A stretch of 52,779 bases of DNA from a virus (Duplodnaviria; Caudoviricetes): positions 1 to 52,779 of the IMG/VR virus record IMGVR_UViG_3300014827_000174. One strand, 5' to 3'. The notes under the pieces were generated by a model. It saw only the letters and a list, made by a program, of their open reading frames with translations, was not told where the DNA came from and searched no databases. The translations under genes were made by a program, and so were the position numbers. The first letter of the stretch is position 1; the number at the start of each line of letters is the position of its first letter. Shown in pieces: positions 1,742 through 24,175 of the stretch.

Positions 1742-1752
1742 TGTACTCCCCC

Positions 1753-1815: not shown

Positions 1816-1893
1816 GCTCACCCTCCTATTTTTCGTAATTAATTTCACCACATCTAGCCTGCTCTATCGCCGGACTATAACTTCAAAAGTGAA

Positions 1894-3585: not shown

Positions 3586-3695
3586 TCTCTTACCTCTCAA
3601 TCACAAAAATTCGATTTGTATTTCATGAGTATATCTTCTACCTAGTGCCAAATCGTTACTGTTTCACCTTCATCCTCAAATGCCTTTCCAAGGAG

Positions 3696-6339: not shown

Positions 6340-7917
6340 TTATCTCACCAGCCTTTCTTTAAGGGTAATTCCACATTTCATTTTGAAACCTATCTCTTCT
6401 TGTGAAAAAACAATGATTTTTTCTATGAAGCGGTCAAATAACTCTCCGTCAAAGCTTTCTATCTGATTATTAGCCTTGGATGCAAATTTCAAAAGCTGTT
6501 CCACTTTGACCACTGTGGCCATTCCACCGTTTACCGAATGAGAAAGAGCTACTTTTTGCTCTTTTAATATAGTTGCTTCCTTGCGCAGTTCATTGTTCTG
6601 CTTAATAAATAGAGCGGGGTCCAGGTACCCTTTGGTCATAAGACCCATGAGTACCTGACTGTGCTCCTTATTTTCTTCAATCTTCACTTCAAGCTCCTGC
6701 ATCTGAACAATATTGTCTGAATAGTTCACTGCCCTTAAGCTCCGCAGCAACGGTTTTAGGATAGACTTATGTCCGAAGATTAGCTTGTTTGTCATGGTTA
6801 TAAAAGCCTGATGAATGAAGTCCTCACGAATAAAGCGCATAGAGCACTCTGAAACATCATTGATATGTTTGGAACAACACCAGGCAATGTATTTGCTATC
6901 ACCACTACCATGAGTTCTGCGTTTAAAGGTGCCTCCACACTCTGAGCACTTTATCTGTCCAGAGAAAGGATAGCGGTTTTGATATTTACTGTTTCCCTTT
7001 CCTATACCTTTCTCTTTTCCATGCTGCTCTAATATCTCCGCACACGCTTCATAATCCTCATGAGTGACGATTGCTTCATGATGGTTTTGAATAAGGTATC
7101 GATCCTTTTCACCATAGTTATAATGCCTGTTAAAATGCTCATCAGTATAAGTTTTTTGCAGTATTACATCTCCTGTGTACTTCTCATTACCAAGAATGCC
7201 GCGAATAGTGGATGCTGTCCAGTGCGTTCCACGTTTTGCAGGTATGCCCTCTGCATTCAGGTTATCGGCAATCTTCTGTGTCCCTTTACCGGATAAGGCC
7301 TGGGAAAAAATTCTCCTAACAACCTCTGTTTGTTCCTTATTCACAAGCATTTGCCCGTCTGAATAATTATACCCATATGGAGGGTAAGACAGCTTGTATG
7401 TACCGTTTTGAAACCGACGCTGAATTGACCATTTATTGTTTTGAGAAATAGAAACTGATTCACTCTCCGCAAGGCTGCTCAGGATTGTCAGCATCAATTC
7501 ACTTTCCATAGACTGTGTATTGATGTTTTCCTTCTCAAAGTATATAAAAACACCGAGGCATGTCAGCCTTCGTACTATTTCCAGGCAGTCTGTTGTGTTT
7601 CTTGCAAACCTGCTGATAGACTTGGTTACAATGAAATTAATTTTCCTATTTTCACAGTCTGTCAACAGTCTTAACAGTTCTGTGCGCTTTTCTTTATGAG
7701 TGCCGGAAATCCCCTCATCATAATAAAGACCTGCAAATTCCCATCGCTGATTTGCCTTAATGTATGATTCGTAATGGTTTTTTTGTGTTTCCAGACTGAC
7801 TAATTGCTCATCACTATGTGTAGACACTCGGCAGTATGCCGCTACCCGCAGTTTTGGCTGCATAGCAGCCAATGCCCTATTTCCTGATGTTTTTGTTACC
7901 TTTCTCATCATCTTCAC
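6340..7917 (-). CDS. large serine recombinase
   Basis: [26 protein letters not shown]. Confidence 0.95.
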   Translation of the reverse strand: MKMMRKVTKTSGNRALAAMQPKLRVAAYCRVSTHSDEQLVSLETQKNHYESYIKANQRWEFAGLYYDEGISGTHKEKRTELLRLLTDCENRKINFIVTKSISRFARNTTDCLEIVRRLTCLGVFIYFEKENINTQSMESELMLTILSSLAESESVSISQNNKWSIQRRFQNGTYKLSYPPYGYNYSDGQMLVNKEQTEVVRRIFSQALSGKGTQKIADNLNAEGIPAKRGTHWTASTIRGILGNEKYTGDVILQKTYTDEHFNRHYNYGEKDRYLIQNHHEAIVTHEDYEACAEILEQHGKEKGIGKGNSKYQNRYPFSGQIKCSECGGTFKRRTHGSGDSKYIAWCCSKHINDVSECSMRFIREDFIHQAFITMTNKLIFGHKSILKPLLRSLRAVNYSDNIVQMQELEVKIEENKEHSQVLMGLMTKGYLDPALFIKQNNELRKEATILKEQKVALSHSVNGGMATVVKVEQLLKFASKANNQIESFDGELFDRFIEKIIVFSQEEIGFKMKCGITLKERLVR

Positions 7918-7960
7918 CTCCTTCAGGTATGTGACATGTTACCTCTGAATGCCCAGTATA

Positions 7961-8182
7961 TCAAGCCATAATCTGTACCAACAAAGGTGAGAAAGATTGA
8001 CGATTTAATACGTCAATTTTGTTGAATTCCACCTCTGAAATAAGACCTGCCTTAAGCATCTTTTGAAGGATTTTCTTAGACCGCCAATAGTCGATTTCTC
8101 TTTGAAGCTCATCAGATGTTATTTTTCTGCTTGTTGGTATAGATTGACCATACGGTCTATTGATAATTTTTGTAACCTGCAT
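7961..8182 (-). CDS. SHOCT-like small protein of the recombinase cassette
   Basis: MLKAGLISEVEFNKID motif; usual position upstream of triple recombinases. Confidence 0.75.
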   Translation of the reverse strand: MQVTKIINRPYGQSIPTSRKITSDELQREIDYWRSKKILQKMLKAGLISEVEFNKIDVLNRQSFSPLLVQIMA

Positions 8183-8222
8183 TCCAGATCACCTCCGCTT
8201 TCAGCCGGAAAAACTCCTGCAC

Positions 8223-8254
8223 CTATATGCGGAAAAACAATGCAATCCGAACCC
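8223..8254 (-). promoter_or_regulatory. candidate phage-sigma promoter, copy 3
   Basis: Minus strand GGGTTCGGA-N14-CGCATATAG, same spacing as the copies at 39642 and 43934. Confidence 0.6.
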
Positions 8255-8272
8255 TTCAAATCAAAAAAGGAC

Positions 8273-8308
8273 AAAAAAATGCCCGCAGAGCTTTTAAACT
8301 CCGCGGGC
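8273..8308 (-). terminator. intrinsic terminator ending the late/lysis transcript
   Basis: gcccgcagag/ctccgcgggc stem followed by a T run on the minus strand. Confidence 0.8.
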
Positions 8309-8573
8309 TGTGATTTAGTAATAAATTATATAGGCATCGCTGAACCCTGCCTTAAGACCTTAACTTCAGTTTTGCTGCCTTTTTCTTGTTTTTTTCTATC
8401 TGGGTTAAGTTCATACCCAATAAAAATACAAATAAAAACTATTTATAATCAGTAATAGGCCTATTTTAATCCTACCTGCTAAACGCCATGATTGTAGCAT
8501 CAAAGCCTTCTAAAATACTGATTCCTTCATTAGATAAGGATACTACTTATTATAGAAGGAAACTGAAAGCCCA

Positions 8574-8735
8574 TTACCCACACTTCGACCAATCACCAGT
8601 TATGCATTCTGTACAGCCTCCAACCCGGATGAGTTTGTTTTGGCAAACTGGGCATTTGTTGTTCTCAATTAACCCTTGTTCACAAGGCTCCATGCAATAA
8701 GCCTTTCGGTTACAGTCAACGCAAACATCGTTCAT
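8574..8735 (-). CDS. small Cys-rich zinc-ribbon protein (53 aa, not in ORF track)
   Basis: MNDVCVDCNRKAYCMEPCEQGLIENNKCPVCQNKLIRLGGCTECITGDWSKCG*; GAGGCGG RBS. Confidence 0.6.
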   Translation of the reverse strand: MNDVCVDCNRKAYCMEPCEQGLIENNKCPVCQNKLIRVGGCTECITGDWSKCG

Positions 8736-8808
8736 TTTATCCGCCTCACACATTCATCTGTTTAATGAGGTTAACCCCTCATAGTTCTATACTTGTTTGA
8801 CAATTTGT

Positions 8809-9204
8809 TCACACCATGGTGGGATCTGGAGTTGCAACGGATACAGGTGTGGCTACAACCGGGCTAATAGTAAACGGTTTAATCTTAGCAAGTTCTTGAG
8901 CTATAATTCCTTTAAACAAAGCCAATATCTCTTCCATGGGAAGGTTCTTTCCGAATCCGGTTTTGGCTATTTCTGTTTGAATAATATTGGTCACGGAATT
9001 AGCTAAATCAACCGATGGCAAAATCCCCCCCACTTGCTGCTTAGCATCGACAAAGCCCTGGCCTAAGATATAAGACGATGAGGCAATCACAAGATAGAGC
9101 ACATCTTCCGGCGGCATACCTAGTTTCAATACGAAGTTAAGCAATACGATTAAGACAATTCCAACGAACGCCCATAGTTTACGAGACTTAAGTTTTTCGG
9201 ACAC
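8809..9204 (-). CDS. holin-like membrane protein
   Basis: KLKSRKLW followed by two hydrophobic helices; directly downstream of the endolysin. Confidence 0.65.
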   Translation of the reverse strand: MSEKLKSRKLWAFVGIVLIVLLNFVLKLGMPPEDVLYLVIASSSYILGQGFVDAKQQVGGILPSVDLANSVTNIIQTEIAKTGFGKNLPMEEILALFKGIIAQELAKIKPFTISPVVATPVSVATPDPTMV

Positions 9205-9240
9205 GATTAATTCCTTCTTTCTTTTTTGAGCAAAATAAAT

Positions 9241-9259
9241 AGCAGGTCATTTACCTGCT
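9241..9259 (-). terminator. hairpin/terminator after the endolysin
   Basis: agcaggt-cattt-acctgct with a T-rich tail on the minus strand. Confidence 0.45.
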
Positions 9260-9297
9260 TAAACCTTCTGAGCTATTCACATTAGGGTTTGAGGGCT

Positions 9298-10344
9298 CTA
9301 AAACTTACTAAATCCACCGTTCCATGCTACATAGCCACTTTTTGTGTTAGCTCCTTTGTTAGTGGCATAAACGACATGCAATTTACCTTTCTTCCTGTAG
9401 AGTGGTGTTGCTGATTCTCTAGGATTCAAAGACCCTAAACTACCACCAATCTCATCGAGAACCGCTTCCATTGTAGAGCCATTCTGCCATTGGCTTTGGT
9501 AGATATACTGGATACAGCTAACTACATTGGCTACGTATCCACTTTTTACGCCTGTCGGTGTGGGATACTCAACTAGGCATAACTGCTTTGAACCGCTGAC
9601 ATCTAGGACAGTTATCCTATCCCCTTTGGAAACATATCTTCCTGGAATTGTATTCCCGTTTGCATCCCTAATATAAAGGTCGTCATTGATAACCTTGGCG
9701 TTGTTGGGATAAGTGTATTTTAGTGTAGCAACGGGAGGAACTGAAACAGGTACAGCGCTGGGAGCAGGACCATCTACATAAGCAATACCAAAGTAGTCAC
9801 AAATGCCTTTTGCGTGGGCTACAGCGATGGTGTCTAAGAATGGCTTTGATTTTAACTTGGAAGCATCAGAAGAAGAGTCAATAAATCCACTTTCAGTTAA
9901 AATGGCAGGCGCATTGGTATTAGGGCCCGTTACATAATCATGCGCAATCTTAACCCCTCTGTTTGCCCACTGGCCTGCATTTACAAGATAAGGGAGAACC
10001 CTTTTGGCTAAAGTTTCTGCCTTGCCACCTGTACCATAAATTAAAATTTCTTGTCCTGTTCCCCCTCCTGCATTAATATGAATTGCCACAAATATATCTG
10101 CATTGACGTTATTAGAAATATCACATTTTGCTTGTAGAGATTGAACTAATGAAAAACCAGACGATAATCCTGTTACAAGGTCCCCATCTCTTGTGAGGAC
10201 AACCTTGAATCCATTTAGTTCAAGCATGGGTTTTAGCTTTCTACAAATATAGAGTGTTAAGTCTTGCTCTAGTAACCCATTACCTTCTGCCCCTGTGTCA
10301 TGACCATATGAGTTATGCCCTGGGTCTAAAACTACAACTGGCAT
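9298..10344 (-). CDS. endolysin, N-acetylmuramoyl-L-alanine amidase (Amidase_3) with C-terminal SH3-like wall-binding repeats
   Basis: LDPGH, E, AIHINA and ILTESGF zinc-amidase motifs; Pro/Val linker; two repeats ending KSGYV. Confidence 0.9.
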   Translation of the reverse strand: MPVVVLDPGHNSYGHDTGAEGNGLLEQDLTLYICRKLKPMLELNGFKVVLTRDGDLVTGLSSGFSLVQSLQAKCDISNNVNADIFVAIHINAGGGTGQEILIYGTGGKAETLAKRVLPYLVNAGQWANRGVKIAHDYVTGPNTNAPAILTESGFIDSSSDASKLKSKPFLDTIAVAHAKGICDYFGIAYVDGPAPSAVPVSVPPVATLKYTYPNNAKVINDDLYIRDANGNTIPGRYVSKGDRITVLDVSGSKQLCLVEYPTPTGVKSGYVANVVSCIQYIYQSQWQNGSTMEAVLDEIGGSLGSLNPRESATPLYRKKGKLHVVYATNKGANTKSGYVAWNGGFSKF

Positions 10345-10682
10345 TACTTTATCAGTCCTTTCAAAACCATACTATAATAAAAAGTCCAGAGATTAGTTAA
10401 TGCAAAAAATACAAGAGTTACAGTTCCCGCTATAATCGCATTTTTTAGTTTGTTATACGTTTGCAAAGGTCGTTCGTTTATTTCTTTAACCTCGGTCGTT
10501 ACCTTTGCTAAATTAGTCGTAAGGATTTTTGTTGCTTCCAAAACCTTATCGACAGTGCCCTCCATTCTAATATTAGATTTCTCTATATCTACTAGACTTT
10601 TAGAGTGGCCTTTGTCATTATCCTTAAGTTCAGAACAATCATCCTCTACGTGCTTAAATCTTCGGTCAATGTCCTCTTCCAT
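10344..10682 (-). CDS. holin / XhlA-like protein
   Basis: N-terminal coiled coil plus C-terminal TM helix; stop overlaps the endolysin start (TAATG). Confidence 0.65.
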   Translation of the reverse strand: MEEDIDRRFKHVEDDCSELKDNDKGHSKSLVDIEKSNIRMEGTVDKVLEATKILTTNLAKVTTEVKEINERPLQTYNKLKNAIIAGTVTLVFFALTNLWTFYYSMVLKGLIK

Positions 10683-10744
10683 CCCAATACTTACCTCCTG
10701 TTTTCAGAAAACTTCTGCATCGGAGGGAAATACAATTTATTGTA

Positions 10745-10785
10745 TAACCCACAAGGGTACAGGGTGCGTACTACCTTGTGGGTTA
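10745..10785. other. strong hairpin upstream of the lysis genes
   Basis: taacccacaagg...ccttgtgggtta 12-bp perfect stem with inner gtac/gtac. Confidence 0.7.
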
Positions 10786-10806
10786 CCGTCCCGCAAGTGA
10801 TTTAGA

Positions 10807-10854
10807 TTACATGCCTACCACAGATACAACGGATAGCCATAACCACCACCACAT
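10807..10854 (-). CDS. 15-aa Trp-rich hydrophobic peptide (leader peptide or type I toxin candidate)
   Basis: Perfect AGGAGGTGAT RBS then MWWWLWLSVVSVVGM*. Confidence 0.55.
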   Translation of the reverse strand: MWWWLWLSVVSVVGM

Positions 10855-10937
10855 AAGATCACCTCCTAATAAAGAAGGGCAAAGAAAAAAGACTATCTCT
10901 AGTCCCTGCTTTACCCTTGTTCATTTAATTAGACTAC

Positions 10938-11096
10938 TTACATAGCAATTTGCGCTTCGGTCATTTGAGGAGTCGTTAAAATCATGTCGCATTCTGACTG
11001 GGTAATACGAGCTGGAACTTTACTTTGAAGATAAACTTCGTCTACTTTTCTCATAATCCAAAGATTGAGAATGAACGCATAAGCTGGACTTTGCAT
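10938..11096 (-). CDS. XkdX-like small phage protein (52 aa, not in ORF track)
   Basis: MQSPAYAFILNLWIMRKVDEVYLQSKVPARITQSECDMILTTPQ...; GAGGTGG RBS; usual position after tail fibre genes. Confidence 0.65.
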   Translation of the reverse strand: MQSPAYAFILNLWIMRKVDEVYLQSKVPARITQSECDMILTTPQMTEAQIAM

Positions 11097-11126
11097 TGAT
11101 ATTCACCACCTCTCATCGCTTCAACT

Positions 11127-11366
11127 CTACAGAAGCGTCATCATAAAATCCTCCAACGCTGATATTCGTTCTCCGTCAGAGGGAGGGGATACAGCTCTTG
11201 TTTGGGCGTTAAGGATAACTTGAAACTCAACGTCGGTTACTTCTTTTGCGTCGAGTTCGTCAGTTGTAAAACCAGCGCTCATAGCATTCGCAAGCTCCAT
11301 TTCCACGGTATTACAAGATGAAGAGGTTAGCACCCTTTTCGTGGCTATTTCGACGACGACGACCAT
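11127..11366 (-). CDS. small tail-associated protein (possible fibre chaperone)
   Basis: C-terminal PSDGERISALEDFMMTLL, typical of genes preceding XkdX. Confidence 0.6.
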   Translation of the reverse strand: MVVVVEIATKRVLTSSSCNTVEMELANAMSAGFTTDELDAKEVTDVEFQVILNAQTRAVSPPSDGERISALEDFMMTLL

Positions 11367-11379
11367 TGTAATTTCCTCC

Positions 11380-13938
11380 TTATTGGCCCCATACTTGAAG
11401 AGACATTTGAATCGTATCCGTGGGTATATAATAACTAGGGTTACCCTGTAAGTCCCAGTTTAAGGTGAACCCTGTCGCGTTAAATACAACCCCCGCTTCC
11501 GTAACAGCCATCCCTGAGTGCATTAGTATTATTCGTGCCGTATTTACAGCTGTATGGCTATCTCCAAATCTAAACCAACAGTTGTGCTGAACTCCGTCGA
11601 AAGAACCATCAGAATCATAGTAAGAGTTGGGACCAGCACCCGCCGTCAACGATGCTCTTATTCTTATGAAGGAAGGCGTAAACCCCGTTGTAAAAGCTTG
11701 GGCTCCCGTGGTATTCGTAGCGTGAGTTCCTGAACCACTCCAAACCCTACATAATATCTGAGAAGCCCCGTGAGTAGGGTTAGTCAAGAACATTTGTCCT
11801 GCGGATGAAGTCATCCTTATAGGAGAATCTATACCATCATTCGTTACGTCATGGAAGTCAATATATTTACCAATTTCCATAACACCGTCCGTTTTAACGA
11901 CGGGTATATGTGGCCAAGTACCCCCGTTTGCGCTAGTACCCCCTAGTCTAAATCCACCGAGCATGTCTGAATTTAGATTAGTATTTAGTACCCCATTTGA
12001 TACGGGTATATTTCCCGTTGCGTTCCCTGCCGCATATCCTCCGTGCAAGGCTGAGTTTAAATTAGGAACAACCGTGGTAGAGGTAACGATCAAGGGGGGC
12101 GTACCTATCGCGATATTACTGACTAATTGAGTCGTTGTGATGGTATCCGTGGCGCTAACTTTGCCGCCTACGGTTAACTTTGAAATCCCATCGGGAAGAG
12201 AGTTAATCCCAACGCCGTTACTTCTAAGAGCAAGCATCGGAATATAGGAATTAATGGCTTGGGATAATATCGTCGATAACGCGCCAAGAGTCCCCTCGAT
12301 AGCTATGCTCGCGGTGTCCTTAACCGTTAAAATATACGTTCCAATGGAAGTATCAAGTAACCCAGATAGCGTGGTCGTAAAGGTGAATGTTCCAGCTACC
12401 CAGCCCGAGTTTGTAACCGCCCCGCCATTATATTGATACGTTGGATTGGTTATCGTCAGCCCTGTTGTTATGCTTGTATTAAGCTTAATAAGCCCCGTTA
12501 TGATGGCTGTTGTTTGTGCCCTTTGAACAGGGATGACCAGGGGGGTAATCGTCCCATAAGTAATCGTTGAAGGGTTATAGTAATTCAACATTATCTGGGT
12601 GGCGCTGGCAGCTAAATAGTTCCCATAGGTGGCTTTTGATGTAACCCTGACGACGCAGGTAGACGATAGTGCAACCGCCGTTAGAAAAAAACTAGCCGTC
12701 AAAACCGATAAGTCTGTACAGCCTGTTACGTTGGTAAAAGCCCCGCCCGCTATACTAACCGCTACGTCATACTTGATTGCTGCTGCACCCAATTGGTCTG
12801 TGGCTGCATTCCAAGTTACCGTTATCGCCTTTCTATTCGGAATATAATACAGCGTTCCTCCGACGTTATAAGTTCCCGAGGTCACTAATCCCGGAGTGGT
12901 CCACAGGGGGTTTACCCGAAGATCAACCGCAATCGTTTTTGTAGACGTACCCGAACTCCCGAAGGCGTTTGTTGTGGTAAGGGTGAAACTTAAATTCCCC
13001 ACATAATTTGAACCGCTAAATAGAGCCTTAAGTTCCGTCATGCTAATAGGGATGGTCACTGCTCCCGCCGTAACGGTTATGGGATTAGTAATCGTTATTC
13101 CTAAACAAGCGAGGCTATAAGTAAACGCCGTACTCCCCTGAGTATTTGCCGCTCCGGTTACCGTAAGGGCTAGCGATGTTGCCCCGAAAGTAAGGCTCGC
13201 GGAACTTCCTAAAGTAGCCGGTGTGAATGTATTCTTGGTAATAAACCCAGAAAAGAGAAAGCCCGATTGTGCCGCACTGGTATCGAAACAACTTACGGCG
13301 TACCGCACTTGATGGCCCTGAGCTAGAGAGGAAATATTGTCCGTATAAGTTGGGGTTCCAACGGATATTCCGCTAGCTATTACAGGCCATGATCCGCTTT
13401 GATCCGTTTCTTTCTGGACCGTATAAGTAACCGTTGATTCGTTATCATTAGCGCCCCATCCATTCAGGGTAACGCTTGATAAGTTTTCTGCCACTATACC
13501 TGCAACGGGGTTGAGAGTGATGGAGCCTAACATTTGAGGAGCAGTGTTCCACACTGACACGGTAACCGATCCTCCAACAGTCGCATTAGGAGAAGTGGCA
13601 CCCCCGTTATTACAGTACCATTCTACGCTTGCTGAATAAGTCCCTCCCCCAGAACCCGCGCCAACTGAGGTGTCGATGATGGCGGTTCTAGTTTCATTGA
13701 GTCCCCAAGTATTTCCTCCTCCGAAACCAACCCAACCGGAGGTTGTACCGTTGACTGTAACCCTAGCCAACATATACGTGCCGTAACCAAAACTACCTTC
13801 TGTCATTTTCAAGGTTACTTCAAAATGATGGTTTACAACTGATCCGTTTCTTCCACTTTGCCAGTATCCAATACCATGGTTCCAGTCTGGTGCCCCAGAG
13901 TTTACTGTGTTTACGGAATAATTATTTAAATCACCCAT
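11380..13938 (-). CDS. tail tip / receptor-binding protein with FN3/Ig-like beta domains
   Basis: Thr/Ser/Gly-rich beta domains, ITVTWNAATD FN3-like segment, NLNS fibre motifs; last large tail gene. Confidence 0.75.
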   Translation of the reverse strand: MGDLNNYSVNTVNSGAPDWNHGIGYWQSGRNGSVVNHHFEVTLKMTEGSFGYGTYMLARVTVNGTTSGWVGFGGGNTWGLNETRTAIIDTSVGAGSGGGTYSASVEWYCNNGGATSPNATVGGSVTVSVWNTAPQMLGSITLNPVAGIVAENLSSVTLNGWGANDNESTVTYTVQKETDQSGSWPVIASGISVGTPTYTDNISSLAQGHQVRYAVSCFDTSAAQSGFLFSGFITKNTFTPATLGSSASLTFGATSLALTVTGAANTQGSTAFTYSLACLGITITNPITVTAGAVTIPISMTELKALFSGSNYVGNLSFTLTTTNAFGSSGTSTKTIAVDLRVNPLWTTPGLVTSGTYNVGGTLYYIPNRKAITVTWNAATDQLGAAAIKYDVAVSIAGGAFTNVTGCTDLSVLTASFFLTAVALSSTCVVRVTSKATYGNYLAASATQIMLNYYNPSTITYGTITPLVIPVQRAQTTAIITGLIKLNTSITTGLTITNPTYQYNGGAVTNSGWVAGTFTFTTTLSGLLDTSIGTYILTVKDTASIAIEGTLGALSTILSQAINSYIPMLALRSNGVGINSLPDGISKLTVGGKVSATDTITTTQLVSNIAIGTPPLIVTSTTVVPNLNSALHGGYAAGNATGNIPVSNGVLNTNLNSDMLGGFRLGGTSANGGTWPHIPVVKTDGVMEIGKYIDFHDVTNDGIDSPIRMTSSAGQMFLTNPTHGASQILCRVWSGSGTHATNTTGAQAFTTGFTPSFIRIRASLTAGAGPNSYYDSDGSFDGVQHNCWFRFGDSHTAVNTARIILMHSGMAVTEAGVVFNATGFTLNWDLQGNPSYYIPTDTIQMSLQVWGQ

Positions 13939-13953
13939 TAAGTTTCACCTCCT

Positions 13954-15375
13954 CTAAAACATAAAATCTACGCCGTCCGCCCTTTTTTGAATAAACATAT
14001 TACCCATGATTATCTTGTCGTTAACTTTCATCTGTCCGTCAATAACGACCGAAACATCGTTTGCCGTTCCTTGTTTAGCAAAAATGAAGTCGTCAGCAAT
14101 GGCGCTGTTTGACTGTAATAACAAGGCGCTTGTTACAGGGTCTTTCTTGACATTGAAGCCGTTATTATACATCTCAATTAGATTCGCGTTGGCGATATCA
14201 TTGGGGAATATTACGTTTGAGTTCGCGTCCTTAGATATTTCCAGCCTTGCCATAATGGTGGCTTTACTAAGGGCGGGGTTGAATACCATCGACGTCCCGA
14301 TGCTTACAGGGTTGTTGAAAGTACAGGCGGCCTCGTCAATACCAACGATAAGCGAAGCGTCATTATTGGAGTTCATATGAATTGAGCCCGAAGTCGTGTT
14401 TGTGTCGACAATATGGATATTTCCAACGTGCAAAGCGCCTGAAAATGTTCCCCCGAAGTTACCCGTGAGAGCCGTCATCGTACCGTCTTGCTGTACCCTG
14501 AACGGAGCGATTTCTTTGTTAGCCTCGATATCTCCCGCCCATATTCTCACGGGATTCAAACCGGTCATATCGGTTGTCATACCCGCGTTGGGTAAGACTA
14601 CTTTACCCCGAACGATCGCGGTATTGATTTCAGCGTTTCCGTTTTGGAGAAGTTGCCAACCCGCTACGCCAGCGGCGTAATTAATTGACTGTACATTGCC
14701 CGCGAGTGTAACTGATCCCTCAGAACCTACTACAAATGTTTGATCGTTATTCGCATTGGTAATGATTAAGCCCTTAGCATTCATCTTATCGGCTGTTACT
14801 GCTCCTACTGCAATACTTTCAGCCAGAATTGATCCGACTAATATCTCTGCGGCGGTGATACTTCCGGCCATTATTTCATTGGCAGTGATACTTTTTGCGG
14901 CGATCTCTCTGGCTGTTATTGCATCAATAACCATTTTGTCCCCGGTGATCGTTCCAGCACAAATAGCGCCTACTCCGATGGCATCCGCTGCGATTGAACC
15001 TGCGGTAATTGATCCAACGGCCATTTGATCCGCAGTAATACAACCCGTTGCCAGAGCATCTGTTGTGATGGCGTTTGCGGCGATTGCATTGGCTACTATT
15101 GAACCGGGAACGATTAGATCCCCATCGATCACCGTTGAGTTGGGAACAGTGATGGCAATTCCTAGCTTATTCAAAAAAACCAAGCAATCTGAATCTGTTA
15201 AAGTTGGGTAGGCATCAGATACCACTAAGATTGTTGGAGTTGCCGCTAACCAATAGACATAATGATAGTCTGTGTGTCCATCAGGAAGGCCATAGGAAAC
15301 TCCCTTATAAACCATCGTTAATCCTGCCCATTGGATTTCTAAGGATGTGGGCATATGATTTGCAATCGTGTACAA
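13954..15375 (-). CDS. tail fibre protein C (N-terminal 'socket' domain + 10-residue repeats)
   Basis: IxAxxITAxx repeats; N-terminal domain paralogous to that of 15417..16790; TTG start after AAGGAG. Confidence 0.75.
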   Translation of the reverse strand: MYTIANHMPTSLEIQWAGLTMVYKGVSYGLPDGHTDYHYVYWLAATPTILVVSDAYPTLTDSDCLVFLNKLGIAITVPNSTVIDGDLIVPGSIVANAIAANAITTDALATGCITADQMAVGSITAGSIAADAIGVGAICAGTITGDKMVIDAITAREIAAKSITANEIMAGSITAAEILVGSILAESIAVGAVTADKMNAKGLIITNANNDQTFVVGSEGSVTLAGNVQSINYAAGVAGWQLLQNGNAEINTAIVRGKVVLPNAGMTTDMTGLNPVRIWAGDIEANKEIAPFRVQQDGTMTALTGNFGGTFSGALHVGNIHIVDTNTTSGSIHMNSNNDASLIVGIDEAACTFNNPVSIGTSMVFNPALSKATIMARLEISKDANSNVIFPNDIANANLIEMYNNGFNVKKDPVTSALLLQSNSAIADDFIFAKQGTANDVSVVIDGQMKVNDKIIMGNMFIQKRADGVDFMF

Positions 15376-15405
15376 ATTTAATCATCTCCTTTTGAGAAAG
15401 CAAGA

Positions 15406-15437
15406 GCGAAACATTTCTACATAAGTAGATGTTTCGC
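15406..15437 (-). other. hairpin enclosing the stop codon of fibre gene B
   Basis: gcgaaacat...atgtttcgc 9-bp stem with inner ctac/gtag. Confidence 0.6.
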
Positions 15438-16790
15438 CATGTTTAAACGATCCGATGCAACCGATCCTGCTCCGATTTGTGTTCCTGTCACCGTGCCATT
15501 GACTAAGTTTGCCCCGGTAATTGTCGTTCCTGCGATCTTTGCCCCGGTTACGGCATTGGAGGCTATTTCCGTTCCTGTTACTGCGTTTGCCGCAATCGTT
15601 GCCGTTGTGATTTGATTGGCTCCAATGGCAGCGGTTAATACAGCCCCCGCTCCTATTTTAGTAGCGATAACTGCTCCTGCCCCTAAAGCCGTCGCATCAA
15701 CATTTCCTGCTAAAATTTTTGCCGAAGTAACTGCTCCTGCTCCCAAAGCTGTAGCGGTAACTGCCCCTACTCCTAGCCCGGCGGCAACTACTGCCCCGGC
15801 ACCTATCCCTGCGGCGACAATTGCCCCCGCTCCGATAGCACCCGCAAGAACTGCTCCTGTAGCAATTTTAGTTGAAATAACCGCATTTGCCCCTAGTTCA
15901 TTGGCTGTAATGGCCCCGGTATTTATTGCTGCTGTATTGACGACACTTGCCGCAAATTGAGCTGACGCAGAAATGCCTCCTGTGGCAATTTTTCCTGCGA
16001 TAATTGCGCCTGATCCGATAGCGCCTGAATCAACGACGCCTGCCGTGAATTGATTGGCTGCTGAAACCCCCCCGACAGCAATCTTTCCTGCGATAACGGC
16101 CCCTGCTCCAATTTCTAAAGACCCTACTGCCCCAGTCGCAATTAAGGCTGTTGTTATTTGATCGGCCCCAATGGCCGCCGTTAATACGGCGCCTGCTCCT
16201 ATTCCATTTGCGATAACCGCCCCGGTTGAAATATGCGTTGATGTTATGGCATTTCCTGCAATATTTAAGGAACCGATCCCACCCGTTTTGACTTCACTTC
16301 CACTAACCGTTCCGTCAAGTAAAGCAGAGCCTGTACTCATTTGTCCCATAACTGTACTATGTTTTCCACCATCATTAATGAAGACTAAAACATCATCTTC
16401 AGTCAAAGTCGGCTTAATAGCACTTGTTAAGAAGGTTGTTTTATCTGCTTGAAGCAGTGTCCAATAAATAAATTTATTGGCTGAGTTTCCGTCTATGATC
16501 GCATAATTAATCCCTTTAAAAACCACATTACATGCAGCCCAAGCAACTGATCCCACAATTGGCATATTATCTGCGATGGTATAACCGTCTAATTGATGCC
16601 TCGGCAGATTTAAGTCTCTACTTCCAAATTTTCCAGTCTGGCCTGCTTTTGTGTAAAGACAATCCAATCTGTACTCGATGTCATGGAGAATACTTTTGAA
16701 CTTGAAATCCATCGCGTGATTGATTGATTTCGTGACCAACACTTCTAACTGTTTAATTTTTGAGTTTCTTCTCACACGTTTCATCAACAA
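15417..16790 (-). CDS. tail fibre protein B (propeptide-like N-terminus, 'socket' domain, Gly/Ala 10-residue repeats, C-terminal 'plug')
   Basis: Long IGAGAVxAxK repeat tract; shares motifs with both neighbours. Confidence 0.75.
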   Translation of the reverse strand: MLMKRVRRNSKIKQLEVLVTKSINHAMDFKFKSILHDIEYRLDCLYTKAGQTGKFGSRDLNLPRHQLDGYTIADNMPIVGSVAWAACNVVFKGINYAIIDGNSANKFIYWTLLQADKTTFLTSAIKPTLTEDDVLVFINDGGKHSTVMGQMSTGSALLDGTVSGSEVKTGGIGSLNIAGNAITSTHISTGAVIANGIGAGAVLTAAIGADQITTALIATGAVGSLEIGAGAVIAGKIAVGGVSAANQFTAGVVDSGAIGSGAIIAGKIATGGISASAQFAASVVNTAAINTGAITANELGANAVISTKIATGAVLAGAIGAGAIVAAGIGAGAVVAAGLGVGAVTATALGAGAVTSAKILAGNVDATALGAGAVIATKIGAGAVLTAAIGANQITTATIAANAVTGTEIASNAVTGAKIAGTTITGANLVNGTVTGTQIGAGSVASDRLNMAKHLLM

Positions 16791-16801
16791 ATCCCTCTTT
16801 C

Positions 16802-19126
16802 TTAAACCAAGATATGTTTCGCAAGATTTAGCTTATTAGCCGCAATAGCTCCTAAAGCTAATTTATTGTCAGTGACTATGCCATCTTTTAATTGTGTCGC
16901 CGTAATGGCTCCAACAGCAATATTTCCAGTATGAACGGCGCCTGCCGCAAGATTCGCGGTATCAATTTGACCTGCTCCTATTTGAGTCCCGTTAATTGTT
17001 CCAACCGTAATATTCGCAGCATGAAGATTTATGACATCAATCTCACCGCAATCAATCGTTCCTGCTGTAATCTTAGAAGCGGTTAGATCCACGATTTTTC
17101 CGTCAGTAATACTTGAATCGGCAATTTGCACCGTTCCGATGGCTCCGTTTTTGATAAGTGCTGTGGTAATGGCGCCTAACTTAATCTGGGCTGTATCTAC
17201 CGCTAGGAGGGCTATTTGAGCACTATCTACCGCCAGTAAACCGATCTTTGCATTCGTTATACTCGCATTGGCTATATCGGCAGTTCCTACCACGAGTTTG
17301 TCAATCGAGGCGCGGTCAATCTTGCCGTTAGTTATTTGAGCATCGCCAATTTTCGCGGTTGTAATCGTGGCATTGGCGATCTTGGCCGAGTCCACAGCTA
17401 GATTATCGATCTTAGCATTCGTAATAGCAGCACTTGCTATTTGAGCTGAACCAACCGCTAAATTATTAATCTTACCCGTGGTCACCGCAAGGTCGTTAAT
17501 GACAGCACTCGTAACCGCGAGCAATCCGATTTTCGCCGTGGTTATATTTGCATCAGCTATCTTTGCTGTTATGATTGCAGCATCTTGAATATTGGCGCTG
17601 CCTAGAATATCAATTTGATCAGCAGCAATCGTAATGGTTTCAGCCGATAAGTTAATCGCCTTTATGATTTGGGCCGGGTCTACTTTGGAATCAGCGGTTT
17701 GCTTTGCTATATCCGCGAGGGACTTAGCCTTCAATGCTATAGCGTTCAAGAGGTTAGAACGCGCATCGTAATAAGCCGTAAACGCGGCCCTAAGTTCCGT
17801 TCCTACCATATCTGTCGTGATAGTCAGGTCGGTAATTAGCGGCACGATATAGGCGCTTAAGGCAAAGTATGAATTGTCATATGGGGTCTTTTCGGTGATA
17901 CCTATGAAGGTGTCCGCTTGATGGTCATTGATCGCCACCTCGGATACTATGGCATCGAATTCTTTCTTGATCGCCTGTTTTTCTTGGGAGGTTAACTTAT
18001 TATCGTTTGATAAATCGGCTAGTATGGCACTAGAGACTGAGGCATCAATGACTGATTGTTGCCATACCGTTTTATCCGCTACTACGGTATCAGTTAGGAC
18101 CGCGATAGAGTTCTCAATATTCGTCATCGAGCTCATTAAGTTCTTTTGGAAACTACCCAGCTCAATCTTTTCGATTCGCGCGGTTAGGTCGTTTCTAATA
18201 ATAGAGATTACTTTACACTTCAGGTCAAGCATCAACTTCAGGTGTCTTACCATGACGGTATCGCCAATCGCTACGCTTTCAAGTACAGAGTAGTTTTTGT
18301 ACTCCTGAGTCTTAGAAAGTTCCAAGAAGTCTACCGTATAGTTGACCAGAGGAATATCACATAATGTATTAACAAAATAGGCTTGAGCGGCAGTTCTGAG
18401 GTCAACTTCTAAGTCTACAGCAAAGGATACTTCTTTGATCTTGGGATTGGCGAATAGGCCAATGCTAGGACTATCAACATATCTTTCAGGAAGTAGTAAC
18501 CCATTATTTCCAACGGGATATATTCTAGTGACGAGACTACCAAAATCAATGACCTCATCGATTCCAATAATGTTCTTCCCGTAGGATACCAAAACACCTT
18601 GATCAATTCCTCTAGCAACGAGTAGCTTTATCAAGAAGTTATCCCGTACAAGTTCCCCACCCCAGAGTGCTATAATGCCGTCTTTTGCCATGATTGCGTC
18701 AACGGGGTTTCTTTTGGTAAATTGTTTTGTCTGTACCCCTCCCACATCACCTGAACTTATGAAGGGATGGGTGTATTGAGTATGAGTCAGGATCCAACCA
18801 AGAGCGCCAGACCCCGATTGATCCGTCGGCGTGACGTCTTCTAAAAAGTTGTCTGCTAGGTCGTAGAATATATGCCGAGCATTTGTTTGGATACCGGAGA
18901 GCGTTTTGGATTTATGATAGATTCTAAACAACTGTCCGTCTGCGTTTTTGACGATATTTCCTTCGACGATGAACTGCCATTTACCCCTATTATCCAGCGG
19001 ATACTCAAACGCAACTTCGTACAGGTCGTTGAACCGCTCCGTCGTCAGAAAGGACTTGCAGTCAGAAAGAACTGCAAGCCCGTTTGTAGCAAAATTGGTT
19101 TCCGTAGGCAAGTATATGCAAATCAT
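16802..19126 (-). CDS. Tal-like minor structural/tail spike protein with repeat extension (fibre protein A)
   Basis: N-terminal phage minor structural domain (NGLAVL...FEYP, WGGELVRDNF, VTRIYPVG); ITTAKIxxxA repeats; ATG overlaps the Dit stop (TAATG at 19126). Confidence 0.85.
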   Translation of the reverse strand: MICIYLPTETNFATNGLAVLSDCKSFLTTERFNDLYEVAFEYPLDNRGKWQFIVEGNIVKNADGQLFRIYHKSKTLSGIQTNARHIFYDLADNFLEDVTPTDQSGSGALGWILTHTQYTHPFISSGDVGGVQTKQFTKRNPVDAIMAKDGIIALWGGELVRDNFLIKLLVARGIDQGVLVSYGKNIIGIDEVIDFGSLVTRIYPVGNNGLLLPERYVDSPSIGLFANPKIKEVSFAVDLEVDLRTAAQAYFVNTLCDIPLVNYTVDFLELSKTQEYKNYSVLESVAIGDTVMVRHLKLMLDLKCKVISIIRNDLTARIEKIELGSFQKNLMSSMTNIENSIAVLTDTVVADKTVWQQSVIDASVSSAILADLSNDNKLTSQEKQAIKKEFDAIVSEVAINDHQADTFIGITEKTPYDNSYFALSAYIVPLITDLTITTDMVGTELRAAFTAYYDARSNLLNAIALKAKSLADIAKQTADSKVDPAQIIKAINLSAETITIAADQIDILGSANIQDAAIITAKIADANITTAKIGLLAVTSAVINDLAVTTGKINNLAVGSAQIASAAITNAKIDNLAVDSAKIANATITTAKIGDAQITNGKIDRASIDKLVVGTADIANASITNAKIGLLAVDSAQIALLAVDTAQIKLGAITTALIKNGAIGTVQIADSSITDGKIVDLTASKITAGTIDCGEIDVINLHAANITVGTINGTQIGAGQIDTANLAAGAVHTGNIAVGAITATQLKDGIVTDNKLALGAIAANKLNLAKHILV

Positions 19127-19821
19127 TAAAGCCACCTCCAGTTCGGCGTAACCTGAACTGAAGTCACTGTACCCATCCAACTGATCGTATTATTGCCCGG
19201 TACTAATACCGGAAAATCACCCGCCATTTTATTATTTTGTAGTACCGAGTCATTGTACGCATCACGTAGAACGCTATCTATTGTGATAGAACCAACGACG
19301 CTTACCAAATTTACAGCCGTACCGTTTATCATCAATGTGATATTCCCACTACCCGTAACAATTATGACGGGTTCACTTGCAGCCGTTCCGGGGTTGATTA
19401 ATACTCCTGCGTTGGCAAGGGCTAGGGGTGTGTTACTCGTTGAATATTTGAAGGGTTTACATCTGAAGTTAACCGTGAAGCGTCCAAACACTTTCCACTC
19501 TTGAGCAATATCGAATTGATCTGAAACGTGGGCAAGATAATATTTATCCGGCTGATTGCTGAGTATTAAAGGCCCTTCTCCCCCGTCAAGCCAAGCTTTG
19601 ATCACATCCGCCTTGTCAGCAACACCGTCATCCTTGAAGCCGCATTTGAAAGGTATAATAATATCTTTGTAGGTTAAGTCATCCACTCTGAGGCTTCCGT
19701 TTCTACCAGGCACCTCAATGTAATTAATGTTCCTTGCGGGCTTAGGGATAACAGGACGTTTCTCGATTAGAATTCCATAGTCTAGAAAGCTGTCCTTAGA
19801 TATAAAATTAAAACCGTACAC
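19126..19821 (-). CDS. distal tail protein (Dit)
   Basis: IEVPGRNGSL, FRCKPFKY, FPVLVPGNNTISW; follows the tape measure. Confidence 0.85.
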   Translation of the reverse strand: MYGFNFISKDSFLDYGILIEKRPVIPKPARNINYIEVPGRNGSLRVDDLTYKDIIIPFKCGFKDDGVADKADVIKAWLDGGEGPLILSNQPDKYYLAHVSDQFDIAQEWKVFGRFTVNFRCKPFKYSTSNTPLALANAGVLINPGTAASEPVIIVTGSGNITLMINGTAVNLVSVVGSITIDSVLRDAYNDSVLQNNKMAGDFPVLVPGNNTISWMGTVTSVQVTPNWRWL

Positions 19822-22947: not shown

Positions 22948-23832
22948 TTAAGCTGTCGTGAAATTCGTAATATTGGTCGCTACTAAATAGTTTCCGGCGA
23001 CATCGGATACATTGGTCGTGCAAATTGCGACATACGCAGTGGCAGCCGTTAAGACCGCTGTTGGGTGGAGGGTTAAAATCTTGCTCGTACCGTCAAGTGT
23101 CAACGTGCCAGGGATAATTGTTCCGTCAGTTGCTTTTAATAGGAAGAAGTTCGCAGAAGTTACCTTCGATGGGTCAATGGCTTCATTGAACGTCCAGATC
23201 ATGTTGGCGGTGATTGGCACCGCTGCTGCAGCATCGGCTGGGGTGGTAATAACCGTCGGCGCGGTTGTATCAACCGTCGGGATTGTTACGGCTGAAAACC
23301 AAGTTGAATCGATCCCCACGGGGCAGTTCGTGTCGATTGAATCGACATGGTATTCCCACATTCCGTTGTATTGAGTGGTTTGAAAAAGTGCTTTTACTTT
23401 GGGCGCTTGAAACTTCACTTTCCCTTGCTGTCCTTCCAAGTTGTCATCCGGAAGTTGGAAAGCTCCTTTGTAAAGCACTCCGTAACGTTTGGCACCCCCG
23501 CGCAGAGTTGCCTTATAGAGTAAGGCTACATAAGGGGCAATGTCTGACCCTGAGGCATAAACCCCACCCGTCACTGCGGTGGTTTGACCCAGCAATTCTA
23601 CTCTTTGCGCACTGGTCAGATCAGCAAGATCGACTTCTATGTCGACACTATCGAGCGTGGTTGCCTGATCCCAAAGAATATTCTCTGCAAATAGTTTTTC
23701 GGTGTTTTGCTTAGGCTTGATGCCTAATGTTTGAACTCCGGCATAGTATTTTGGCACGGCATAGGTGAGTCCTGTGATATCGTCTTTTGTTTGTTTTGCC
23801 ACGTACAGTTTTTCTATACCAATAATCGGCAT
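22948..23832 (-). CDS. major tail protein (phi13 family) with C-terminal Ig-like (Big_5-type) domain
   Basis: IGIEKLYVA, APYVALLY, YGVLYKGAF; C-terminal DTTAPTV...TFNEAID; probable ATG 23832. Confidence 0.88.
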   Translation of the reverse strand: MPIIGIEKLYVAKQTKDDITGLTYAVPKYYAGVQTLGIKPKQNTEKLFAENILWDQATTLDSVDIEVDLADLTSAQRVELLGQTTAVTGGVYASGSDIAPYVALLYKATLRGGAKRYGVLYKGAFQLPDDNLEGQQGKVKFQAPKVKALFQTTQYNGMWEYHVDSIDTNCPVGIDSTWFSAVTIPTVDTTAPTVITTPADAAAAVPITANMIWTFNEAIDPSKVTSANFFLLKATDGTIIPGTLTLDGTSKILTLHPTAVLTAATAYVAICTTNVSDVAGNYLVATNITNFTTA

Positions 23833-23854
23833 ACCATGCTTCACTCCTTCTCCA

Positions 23855-24175
23855 CTAAATGACATAATAAAAGCGCATGGCCTTGTGATAAATCTGAGTA
23901 TCAGATTCATACAGGTCTAGCGCTGTTGTTCGTTTGAAGCCTACTGCTTCCAAAGTCAATTTAACTTGATCAACCAGCGATGAGTTGTCGCCCTTTGACC
24001 ACACATCCACTTGCATATAATAACCCGTGGCTATTTCGTCGTTCTCTGCCCAAGCCTCACCCTGCTCGTTATAGCAAAAGAAGGTAATGTAAGACGTCGC
24101 CGTCCCTAAATACGTTTGCCAGAATACCGGAACGCCCAGGGGTTTGAGAGCGTTCACTAGGATGCTGTTAATCAT
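23855..24175 (-). CDS. tail terminator / completion protein
   Basis: YITF, QVDVWSK, LYESDTQIYHKAMRF; position. Confidence 0.75.
   Translation of the reverse strand: MINSILVNALKPLGVPVFWQTYLGTATSYITFFCYNEQGEAWAENDEIATGYYMQVDVWSKGDNSSLVDQVKLTLEAVGFKRTTALDLYESDTQIYHKAMRFYYVI

What the first reader, a model, noticed from the sequence alone, without database searches (positions are those of the whole stretch)
13954..19126. Plug-and-socket tail fibre: three genes whose ends suggest head-to-tail chaining, with a middle subunit that could polymerise
Seen: Tal (A) ends GAIAANKLNLAKHILV*. Protein B ends GSVASDRLNMAKHLLM*. B also has a third, internal copy near residue 53-68, GKFGSRDLNLPRHQLD (consensus Gx[IVF][AG][AS]xxLN[LM]x[KR]HxL). 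That copy runs directly into GYTIADNMP..W..VFKG..Y...DG.....IYW...PTLTEDDVLVFIN, a paralogue of the N-terminus of protein C (MYTIANHMP..W..VYKG..Y...DG.....VYW...PTLTDSDCLVFLN). The register is exact: D aligns with the last residue of A and B, and G aligns with the Met of C. So B = propeptide + own plug + socket + repeats + plug; A has only a plug; C only a socket. Inference: the plug completes the socket domain in trans (donor-strand-like complementation, as in type V or chaperone-usher pili), giving A-(B)n-C-RBP. B would be self-blocked until its N-terminal piece is cleaved or displaced near D|G, allowing an optional or variable-length central fibre. I know of no description of this in phage tails.
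Basis: partly seen in the sequence, partly recalled or inferred. Interest (0 to 1): 0.85.

Follow-up and report, generated by a model that had tools for sequence, protein, structure and literature searches.

The report
Snap-together segmented phage tail fibre
Three neighbouring tail genes of this phage encode pieces of one fibre that most likely join because the last strand of each piece completes a small domain at the start of the next, a conserved connector that I found in no paper searched.

Summary
Tal (A, 16802-19126) and protein B (15417-16784) both end in G-x-[IV]-A-x-x-[KR]-L-N-x-A-K-H-x-L plus one residue. B carries a third copy at residues 53-66, running straight into a beta domain that is paralogous to the first 80 residues of C (13954-15375).

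The layout recurs in 44 distinct related phage loci. The domain profile finds 1394 proteins. These include long proteins in which 'repeats, strand, domain' is one continuous chain, several times over, and natural A-C fusions. A trimer co-fold of the B C-terminus with the C N-terminus scored ipSAE 0.74 against 0.02 for the best control. The terminal strand pairs with C residues 19-27, next to C's N-terminus.

The core reading holds: the C-terminal strand completes the next protein's domain in trans.

- B is optional.
- No tandem B genes or naked-socket-plus-plug proteins were seen, so (B)n polymerisation has no support.
- Nothing indicates cleavage at D|G.
- Isolated B is modelled as self-plugged.
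- Open: does A displace B's own strand (linear A-B-C, which I favour), or is B a separate branch?

I rate it a new variant of a known kind, non-covalently joined fibre segments.

The parts
19126..19821 (-). Dit (distal tail protein), context
   Evidence: PF05709 E 1.5e-09; phrog_33 E 1.3e-51. Its stop overlaps A's ATG.
16802..19126 (-). A: Tal with a C-terminal fibre extension, 774 aa from the ATG at 19126
   Evidence: PF06605 Prophage_tail E 5.1e-24; start checked.
16835..17605 (-). A: fibre repeats with a 5-residue hydrophobic period
   Evidence: BLASTP to B's repeats, E 1e-19; autocorrelation peaks at lags 5, 10 and 20.
16805..16834 (-). A terminal strand ('plug'), KLNLAKHILV
   Evidence: Translation. 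A plug-like end is present on the gene upstream of B in all 44 distinct loci.
15417..16784 (-). B: middle fibre segment, 455 aa
   Evidence: There are 74 B-like cluster representatives among the top 150 profile hits.
16641..16772 (-). B: basic N-terminus and long helix (residues 5-48), with D35 and R39 invariant in 51 B-types (Y38 also invariant in the 14-row A2)
   Evidence: AF2: helix 2-46, pLDDT 75-94; invariant columns.
16587..16616 (-). B: internal (cis) copy of the strand, DLNLPRHQLD
   Evidence: In the AF2 model of isolated B, residues 64-66 form a strand and block pLDDT is 78-92.
16347..16586 (-). B: beta 'socket' domain (G67 to about M146)
   Evidence: pLDDT 92-97; paralogue of C residues 1-80; phrog_11032 profile positions 2-88.
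15450..16346 (-). B: fibre repeats with a 5-residue period; length varies among homologues
   Evidence: B-types range from 278 to 457 aa.
15420..15449 (-). B terminal strand ('plug'), RLNMAKHLLM
   Evidence: L447, N448 and H452 are invariant in 51 aligned B-types. Residues 447-455 form the co-fold interface.
13954..15375 (-). C: distal fibre segment, 473 aa, TTG start with an AAAGGAG ribosome-binding site
15130..15375 (-). C: naked N-terminal socket (residues 1-82)
   Evidence: Co-fold contacts are at C residues 1-2, 19-27, 42, 64, 66, 76 and 79-81.
11380..13938 (-). D: 852-aa downstream protein, presumed receptor-binding part (context; its joint to C is not of the plug-socket kind)
   Evidence: No Pfam family above cut-off. 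Its position after C is the only basis for this reading.

Best explanation
A, B and C are successive trimeric segments of one tail-tip fibre, held together without covalent bonds by a split beta domain. The domain consists of a leading strand (K-L-N-x-x-x-H-x-L plus one residue) and a beta body of about 80 residues. In many phages the whole unit lies inside one polypeptide and is repeated like beads along a fibre. Here the chain is cut exactly between strand and body. The strand is the last ten residues of the upstream protein (A, B), and the body is the first domain of the downstream protein (C). The strand pairs with the edge strand of the body (C residues 19-27), next to C's N-terminus, so C hangs on the end of B. 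In phages without B, C hangs directly on A. These steps are shown or well supported. Inferred: B sits between A and C, as the gene order suggests. B folds with its own N-terminal coiled-coil helix and cis copy of the strand in its socket. This self-plugged state keeps B, which has both plug and socket, from joining to itself. On assembly, A's terminal strand takes the place of the cis strand by strand exchange, without cleavage. The result is a fibre of fixed composition, A-B-C-(D), whose length is set by B's repeat number and not by polymerisation.
For: Conservation at exact termini:
- There are 44 distinct B-type genes. 41 of the 42 complete ones end in the strand.
- All 44 have a strand-ended gene upstream: 42 by pattern, plus L040 with a variant and L028 with an inserted ORF.
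- 33 are followed by a gene whose socket starts at residue 1-4.
- The terminal pattern hits no other ORF (80 of 1728, all A-type or B-type).

Covalent versions of the junction:
- 34 of 150 representatives have 2-4 internal 'repeats, strand-like stretch, socket' junctions.
- 8 more have one internal junction.
- P0103, P0105, P0116 and P0136 are A-adaptor-socket fusions of proteins that are split in L032 and L040.
- L053 has A then C with no B.

Co-fold of B 366-455 x3 with C 1-130 x3:
- ipSAE was 0.78, 0.74 and 0.71, against 0.02 for the best of 3 controls.
- Partner pLDDT was at least 88, and the runs agreed in at least 96% of contacts.
- That mark was reached by 58 of 80 solved complexes and 2 of 110 mismatched pairs in the tool's calibration. 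The calibration holds only roughly here, because I used my own alignments and 3+3 chains.
- The interface is B 439-440, 444-445 and 447-455 with C 1-2, 19-27, 42, 64, 66, 76 and 79-81. It includes the invariant L447, N448 and H452, the invariant G25 and W42 of C-types, and the nearly invariant Y23 and T81.

For the inferred part:
- The gene order A-B-C is fixed, and B never occurs without an upstream strand-ended gene (44 of 44).
- None of 29 naked-socket representatives ends in a strand, whereas 53 of 74 B-like ones do.
- L034 and L036 have only self-plugged sockets, yet A and B keep their terminal strands.
- The cis strand is more degenerate than the terminal one: Pro in 15 of 95 against 1 of 95, and Asn at position 3 in 66 against 88 of 95.
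- The AF2 model of isolated B has the cis strand as a strand at pLDDT 78-92, while the terminal strand is undocked (modelled as a helix, pLDDT 60-63).
Against: - No contact between A's strand and B's socket was predicted or measured, because the single co-fold job went to B-C.
- A cis strand has a large entropic advantage over a trans one, and no protease or trigger is known.
- The invariant D35 and R39 of the helix (Y38 too in the smaller alignment) suggest a specific partner that this model does not name.
- Some proteins with helix, cis strand and socket lack a terminal strand (P0055, P0060, P0070, P0072, P0091). So the cis strand is not only a guard against self-joining.
- In the window, A's and B's terminal strands are nearly identical. 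Specificity for B's socket rather than C's socket is therefore not evident.
- Sequence likeness of A's strand to the cis or to the terminal strand does not discriminate (24 against 11 of 35; within-locus excess 2.3 against 3.0).
- The His count for terminal strands is circular, because the selecting pattern required it.
- The structure prediction output gives no contacts, so 'cis strand docked' rests on pLDDT and strand state alone.
Confidence: 0.5

Rival explanations
1. Branch model. B stays self-plugged for good. Its N-terminal coiled coil and basic tip anchor it elsewhere on the tail tip (Dit, Tal or the side of A). A and B each end in a strand that holds a copy of the same C trimer. The phage then carries C(-D) both on the central Tal fibre and on B side fibres.
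For: - Isolated B is modelled with its cis strand in place.
- The helix carries invariant polar residues D35 and R39 in 51 B-types, and Y38 as well in the 14-row alignment, as expected of a binding site.
- In the window, A's and B's terminal strands are nearly identical (6 of 10 residues the same), so both should fit C.
- A's strand is closer to B's terminal strand than to the cis strand in 24 of 35 loci.
- A docks straight on C in B-less phages (L053, and the L013 fusion).
Against: - In L034 and L036 the distal protein also has a cis strand, so neither terminal strand would have a free socket, yet both are conserved.
- B is never found without an upstream strand-ended gene (0 of 44).
- Many A strands form a class of their own (N-W-x-T-H) that is unlike B's terminal strand in the same phage (listing).
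- No anchor site is known, and profile comparison found no likeness between B's helix and the N-terminal anchor domain of small A adaptors.
Confidence: 0.25
2. No trans docking. The motif is only the natural end-cap of the repeat fibre, and the shared termini are conserved junctions that allow recombinational exchange of fibre modules. The proteins would attach to each other by other surfaces.
For: The strand always follows the same repeats and is part of their hhalign match. Distal parts after the socket are swapped between close relatives (L034 against L036; P0089 against P0090).
Against: - The cut lies at the same residue in loci that share only 30-45% protein identity.
- The cis copy in B follows a helix, not repeats.
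- Covalent forms show strand and socket as one unit.
- The co-fold puts the strand on conserved socket residues, with controls at 0.02 or less.
Confidence: 0.08
3. B is activated by cleavage near D|G and then polymerises head to tail, giving A-(B)n-C fibres of variable length.
For: B has both a socket and a terminal strand. In the window, B's terminal strand is nearly the same as A's, so it could fit B's socket if that socket were freed.
Against: - No tandem B genes were seen in 44 loci.
- B's repeat number varies instead, with B-types of 278-457 aa.
- None of 29 naked-socket representatives ends in a strand.
- The D-G pair is also kept (as D/E/T/S then G) in uncut multi-socket chains, so it looks structural.
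- No protease is encoded in the tail module.
Confidence: 0.07

Closest known systems
Lateral tail fibre attachment in T5-like phage DT57C (LtfA into the LtfC collar); PMC10713586, passages read
   Same: A fibre protein is fixed by donating beta-strands to the sheets of another tail protein. The authors call this unusual among solved phages, where joints are otherwise between globular domains.
   Different: In DT57C, N-terminal strands of the fibre enter a dodecameric collar ring. Here, the C-terminal strand of one trimeric fibre segment completes the first domain of the next. The proteins differ, and no sequence relation was tested. I did not see that paper's supplements.
T4 long tail fibre gp34-gp35-gp36-gp37 (recalled, no call)
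   Same: Consecutive genes encode fibre segments that join end to end in gene order.
   Different: The sequences are unrelated. I recall no split-domain joint or self-plugged middle segment there. T4 needs assembly chaperones.
N-terminal 'shoulder' or base domains of phage receptor-binding proteins: lactococcal p2 RBP (2wzp_A), SPP1 gp22 (2xc8_A), cyanophage A-1(L) fibre (8kec_A), HFTV1 fibre (9h5b_BG)
   Same: They are the only non-helical matches to the socket model. Z is 5.2-6.0 with 77-95 residues aligned, and the matches were reproduced with two models. All are beta domains at the start of a trimeric fibre that fix it to another protein. [quoted passage not shown]
   Different: The similarity is weak (Z under 8) and there is no sequence match. 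In those phages the holder is a Dit arm or a hub terminus, not the end of a preceding fibre segment.
Donor-strand complementation and exchange in chaperone-usher pili, and strand exchange after removal of the N-terminal strand in type V pili (recalled, no call)
   Same: This is what it works like: an incomplete beta domain is completed by a neighbour's terminal strand. If B's cis strand is displaced, a placeholder strand is exchanged, as in those pili.
   Different: No homology (Pfam finds nothing). Here the fibres are trimeric with a fixed set of segments and do not polymerise. There is no chaperone, usher or protease.
Other split-domain fibre joints noted earlier in this scan (e1-5466342, e1-5992219, e1-5933583, e1-5814624; unchecked AI notes)
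   Same: The principle is the same: a small domain is cut at a gene boundary between fibre proteins.
   Different: The domain families differ (Ig-like, collagen knobs, cadherin-like). No look-alike of B was found in the scan by sequence. In those notes the next protein brings the missing last strand, whereas here the previous protein brings the first strand and the middle link carries its own copy.

Membership tests
Tal / Prophage_tail (PF06605) | N-terminal hub domains matching the Pfam model above its gathering score | tested here: met
   A residues 105-355 (792-aa numbering): E 5.1e-24, 85.7 bits against a cut-off of 31.3. PF18994 scored 22.5 bits against 23.6, just below cut-off.
phrog_11032 'tail protein' | The socket matches the N-terminus of the profile | tested here: met
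   B 72-160 to profile positions 2-88, E 8.1e-06. C 7-79 to profile positions 5-77, E 0.0029. The family has no described function.
Plug-socket fibre module (the family defined here) | Terminal strand [KRQ]-[LMFI]-N-x-x-x-H-x-[LIM] plus one residue at the exact C-terminus of the upstream protein | tested here: met
   Met by A and B of the window. 41 of 42 complete B-types and 42 of 44 upstream genes match by pattern, plus 2 variants.
Plug-socket fibre module (the family defined here) | The socket starts within 4 residues of the start codon of the downstream protein | tested here: met
   Met by C of the window. 33 of 44 loci show it; 6 have an internal socket, and in 5 none was seen, mostly because the locus ended.
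Plug-socket fibre module (the family defined here) | The strand docks on the socket in trans | tested here: inconclusive
   Prediction only: ipSAE 0.74 against 0.02 for the best control. No measurement exists.
Chaperone-usher or type V pilins | Pilin fold families, plus a chaperone and usher or a processing protease | tested here: not met
   No pilin, chaperone or usher family was found in A, B, C, D or the neighbouring genes at E up to 0.1 or 0.01. The likeness is in mechanism only.
Lactococcal p2-type RBP shoulder domain | Shared fold with a clear structural score | tested here: inconclusive
   2wzp_A scored Z 5.7-5.8, rmsd 3.1-4.7, 87-93 residues aligned. Foldseek against PDB gave nothing at E up to 0.001.
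Fibres with a C-terminal S74 intramolecular chaperone | Peptidase_S74 domain at the C-terminus | tested here: not met
   No such Pfam match in C or D. The motif I saw at the end of TVCOM_ph1 CDS0021 was recognised from memory only.
DT57C LtfA/LtfC joint | Homology to LtfA or LtfC | not tested
   Only passages of the paper were read. No sequence comparison was made.

The most novel reading that the evidence does not exclude
The middle segment B is a self-complemented subunit. Its N-terminal coiled coil and cis strand act as a built-in placeholder, and the terminal strand of the segment above swaps it out during tail assembly. This would be a chaperone-free donor-strand exchange in a trimeric phage fibre. 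It would enforce the order of assembly, prevent self-polymerisation, and allow optional spacer segments to be inserted between Tal and the receptor-binding end.
Probability: 0.35. Interest if true: 0.8.

Novelty: new variant of a known kind. Interest (0 to 1): 0.62.

Why it matters
Phage host range is set by the end of the fibre. A short, conserved and precisely placed connector (ten residues on one side, an 80-residue domain on the other) would explain how these phages swap distal receptor-binding parts and insert spacers without disturbing the tail. It would also give engineers a natural plug-and-play joint for exchanging receptor-binding proteins. The profile finds about 1400 cluster representatives, in split, fused and multi-copy forms, and almost none comes from an isolated phage. 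The module is therefore widespread but unstudied. The self-plugged middle link offers a testable case of strand exchange outside pili.

Tried and rejected
- PDB by sequence: no match to B. C matched only through its repeats, to a 'J central straight fiber' chain at E 4e-4.
- Foldseek against PDB: nothing at E up to 0.001.
- Foldseek against BFVD: the best hits were two uncultured-phage proteins at E 3e-3 and 5e-3.
- VIA wide search: Z no higher than 6.0.
- Pfam: no family above cut-off for B, C or D.
- Isolated phages: only Terrisporobacter phage TVCOM_ph1 holds B and C homologues. It was 1 of 1 record for each of two window queries. An actinophage-type B query hit 7 records, 6 of them through repeats only.
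- Genome-contig scan: 1 locus, the same prophage.
- 399 scored genomes of that class: 2 with a match, one of them the prophage's own genome. Two further genomes were not scored.
- hhalign of small A adaptors against B: only the repeats and strand aligned (95.7%). There was no sign that B's helix is related to the adaptor's anchor domain.
- Plug likeness test, A's strand against the cis or the terminal strand: inconclusive.
- One search gave 78 distinct loci. I set aside 23 as contigs already seen. Of the rest, only 24 had a socket by my HMM and were read. The others matched through repeats only.
- L088 and L120 have a naked socket without a recognisable strand on the gene upstream. I could not explain these.
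- Literature: 'tail fiber' with 'strand complementation' found 0 papers, with 'strand augmentation' 0, and with 'donor strand' 1, which concerned host fimbriae. A general search listed 15 of 103 papers, none on this joint by title or abstract. The NF5 paper, read as passages, had nothing on it. The TVCOM_ph1 source paper, PMC11253131, was seen only as a search listing. Its text and supplements, which may hold virion images, were not read.


Full report
**What is there**

The window is a viral contig, an IMG/VR record estimated 93% complete. It carries a classic siphophage tail module on the minus strand:
- a tail tube protein with an Ig-like end;
- the tape measure protein;
- Dit at 19126-19821;
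- Tal, called A here, at 16802-19126;
- B at 15417-16784;
- C at 13954-15375;
- an 852-aa protein D;
- small ORFs, and an Amidase_3 endolysin.

A starts at the ATG that overlaps the Dit stop. B most likely starts at the ATG at 16784. C starts at a TTG behind an AAAGGAG site.

- A ends KLNLAKHILV.
- B ends RLNMAKHLLM.
- B residues 57-66 read DLNLPRHQLD and run directly into G67-YTIADNMP.
- That stretch aligns with C from residue 2 at 33% identity, E 7e-23.

The core motif occurs only at these three places among 261 ORFs of the window. Shuffles gave a mean of 0.34.

**It is a conserved module, not a relic**

The only isolated phage with homologues is Terrisporobacter phage TVCOM_ph1, and it has the same three-gene layout. 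Scans of viral contigs gave many more loci.

After removing duplicates there are 44 distinct B-type genes:
- 41 of the 42 complete ones end in the strand.
- All 44 have a strand-ended gene upstream. 42 match the pattern. L040 has a variant, and L028 has an ORF inserted in between.
- 33 are followed by a gene whose socket begins within four residues of its start codon.
- 6 are followed by a gene with an internal socket. In 5, no socket gene was seen, mostly because the locus ended.

The terminal pattern hits 80 of 1728 distinct ORFs in these loci, and all 80 are A-type or B-type.

The upstream protein is very varied. It can be Tal, or a small adaptor of 131-311 aa, some proline- or glycine-rich, or a 1392-aa protein. 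These share only the last repeats and the strand.

**The junction also exists as one chain**

An exhaustive profile search with the helix-strand-socket alignment found 1394 cluster representatives at E up to 1e-3, and 825 at E up to 1e-10. I classified the best 150:

| Class | Count | Ends in a terminal strand |
|---|---|---|
| B-like | 74 | 53 (several of the other 21 look like fragments) |
| Socket at residue 1-4 (naked) | 29 | 0 |
| Starts with a strand, then socket, no helix | 5 | not counted |
| 2-4 internal 'repeats, strand-like stretch, socket' junctions | 34 | not counted |
| One internal junction | 8 | not counted |

P0103, P0105, P0116 and P0136 fuse the same adaptor that stands alone in L032 and L040 to a socket-led fibre. 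L053 has A followed directly by a naked-socket protein.

So strand plus socket is one structural unit. It is sometimes cut exactly between the two parts, and B is dispensable.

**Structure**

AF2 on B with 51 aligned homologues gave the following:
- a helix at residues 2-46;
- the cis strand as a beta-strand at 64-66, with block pLDDT 78-92;
- a beta domain at 67-147, with pLDDT 92-97;
- poorly modelled repeats;
- an undocked C-terminus, modelled as a helix at pLDDT 60-63.

The tool gives no contacts, so 'self-plugged' rests on these values alone.

The repeats have a 5-residue hydrophobic period.

The socket has no clear solved relative. The only non-helical matches are weak ones (Z 5.2-6.0) to the N-terminal anchoring domains of phage fibres: p2 RBP, SPP1 gp22, and the A-1(L) and HFTV1 fibres.

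**Docking test**

I co-folded B 366-455 in three copies with C 1-130 in three copies, each with its own alignment.
- ipSAE was 0.78, 0.74 and 0.71, against 0.02 for the best of three controls.
- Partner pLDDT was at least 88, and the runs shared at least 96% of contacts.
- The tool's mark was reached by 58 of 80 solved complexes and 2 of 110 mismatched pairs. Those counts hold only roughly here.
- The interface is B 439-440, 444-445 and 447-455 with C 1-2, 19-27, 42, 64, 66, 76 and 79-81.
- H452-L454 pair with C 20-23, and the chain end lies next to C's first residues, as in the uncut form.
- It covers the invariant L447, N448 and H452, and the conserved Y23, G25, W42 and T81.

This is a prediction, not a measurement.

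**What B is**

Two readings remain.

*Linear.* A's strand replaces B's cis strand, giving A-B-C. In favour:
- The gene order is fixed, and B never occurs without an upstream strand-ended gene.
- No naked-socket protein ends in a strand. Such a protein would join to itself.
- In L034 and L036 even the distal protein has a cis strand, yet A and B keep their terminal strands.
- The cis strand is more degenerate: Pro in 15 of 95 against 1 of 95, and Asn in 66 against 88 of 95. The His count is circular.

*Branch.* B stays self-plugged and is anchored by its conserved helix. A and B both carry C. In favour:
- The helix has invariant D35 and R39 (Y38 only).
- In the window the two terminal strands are nearly identical.

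Comparison of strand sequences did not discriminate.

I found no support for polymerisation of B or for cleavage. There are no tandem B genes, B's length varies through its repeat number, and the D/E/T-Gly pair is also kept in uncut chains.

**Comparison with what is known**

It works like donor-strand complementation, but it is not a member of the pilus systems (no homology).

Among phages the nearest described case is DT57C, where LtfA donates strands to the LtfC collar (passages). HFTV1 fibres are held at the N-terminus of hub subunits (passages). T4's end-to-end fibre is recalled only.

My text searches found no paper on this joint. Supplements were closed, and the TVCOM_ph1 paper was seen only as a search listing.

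Earlier notes of this scan describe split-domain joints in other fibre families. They are unchecked, and none is a sequence relative.

**Verdict**

- The trans-docking core has about 0.8 odds in my judgement.
- The full linear-exchange statement has 0.5.
- Novelty: a new variant of a known kind.
- Interest: 0.62.

Noticed in passing
L034:7953-8010 and L036 (same gene family; P0089, P0090): The distal fibre protein starts (GTG, with AAGGA 9 nt upstream) with MIPSLF-LNINHHLID-G and then the socket. This is a cis strand without any helix. In these phages no socket is naked, yet A and B keep their terminal strands.
   Followed up: partly
P0008, P0013, P0014, P0019, P0023 and 29 further representatives: Long proteins (up to 2686 aa) carry 2-4 strand-socket units 120-260 residues apart, like beads on a fibre. 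The strand is often degenerate there, for example K-L-T-T-Y-N-F-L-L-S-A.
   Followed up: partly
L032:6372-6788, L040, L042, L047, L050, L038 (alignment A6): A family of small adaptors (131-195 aa) begins MAGEQDVIQLP...NRNFxEIERxLSxLQxY and ends in an N-W-x-T-H type strand. They follow a gene of about 470 aa that begins M-x-x-x-EW-x-I-x-DFSGGL. The same adaptor is fused to the fibre in L013 (P0116).
   Followed up: partly
L120:3697-5388 and 5526-11783; L088:5995: A naked N-terminal socket on a fibre protein (at least 2085 aa, cut by the locus end, in L120), but the upstream Tal ends ...YDKINRELL without the usual His strand. In L088 there is no upstream ORF on that strand. These are unexplained exceptions.
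   Followed up: no
L032:7818-10991, L040:7780-12084, L038:8408- (P0156 type): The protein after B has its socket about 375-410 residues in, preceded by ...TFDLTLRDK... and not by a strand. This may be a free socket that is not at the N-terminus.
   Followed up: no
window 22948-23910 (-): The tail tube protein has a C-terminal Big_5 Ig-like domain (E 1.9e-17).
   Followed up: no
window 1-4000 and about 44000: G+C is 33-35% in the first 4 kb, against 41-49% elsewhere. GC skew and coding strand switch near 44 kb.
   Followed up: no
window 11380-13938 (-), and L003:7994-10672: D has no Pfam family. C ends ...KRADGVDFMF and D starts MGDLNNYSV..., so the C-D joint is of another, unknown kind. In TVCOM_ph1 the socket-led protein is a single 892-aa chain whose end looks like an S74-type chaperone motif (recognised from memory only).
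   Followed up: no
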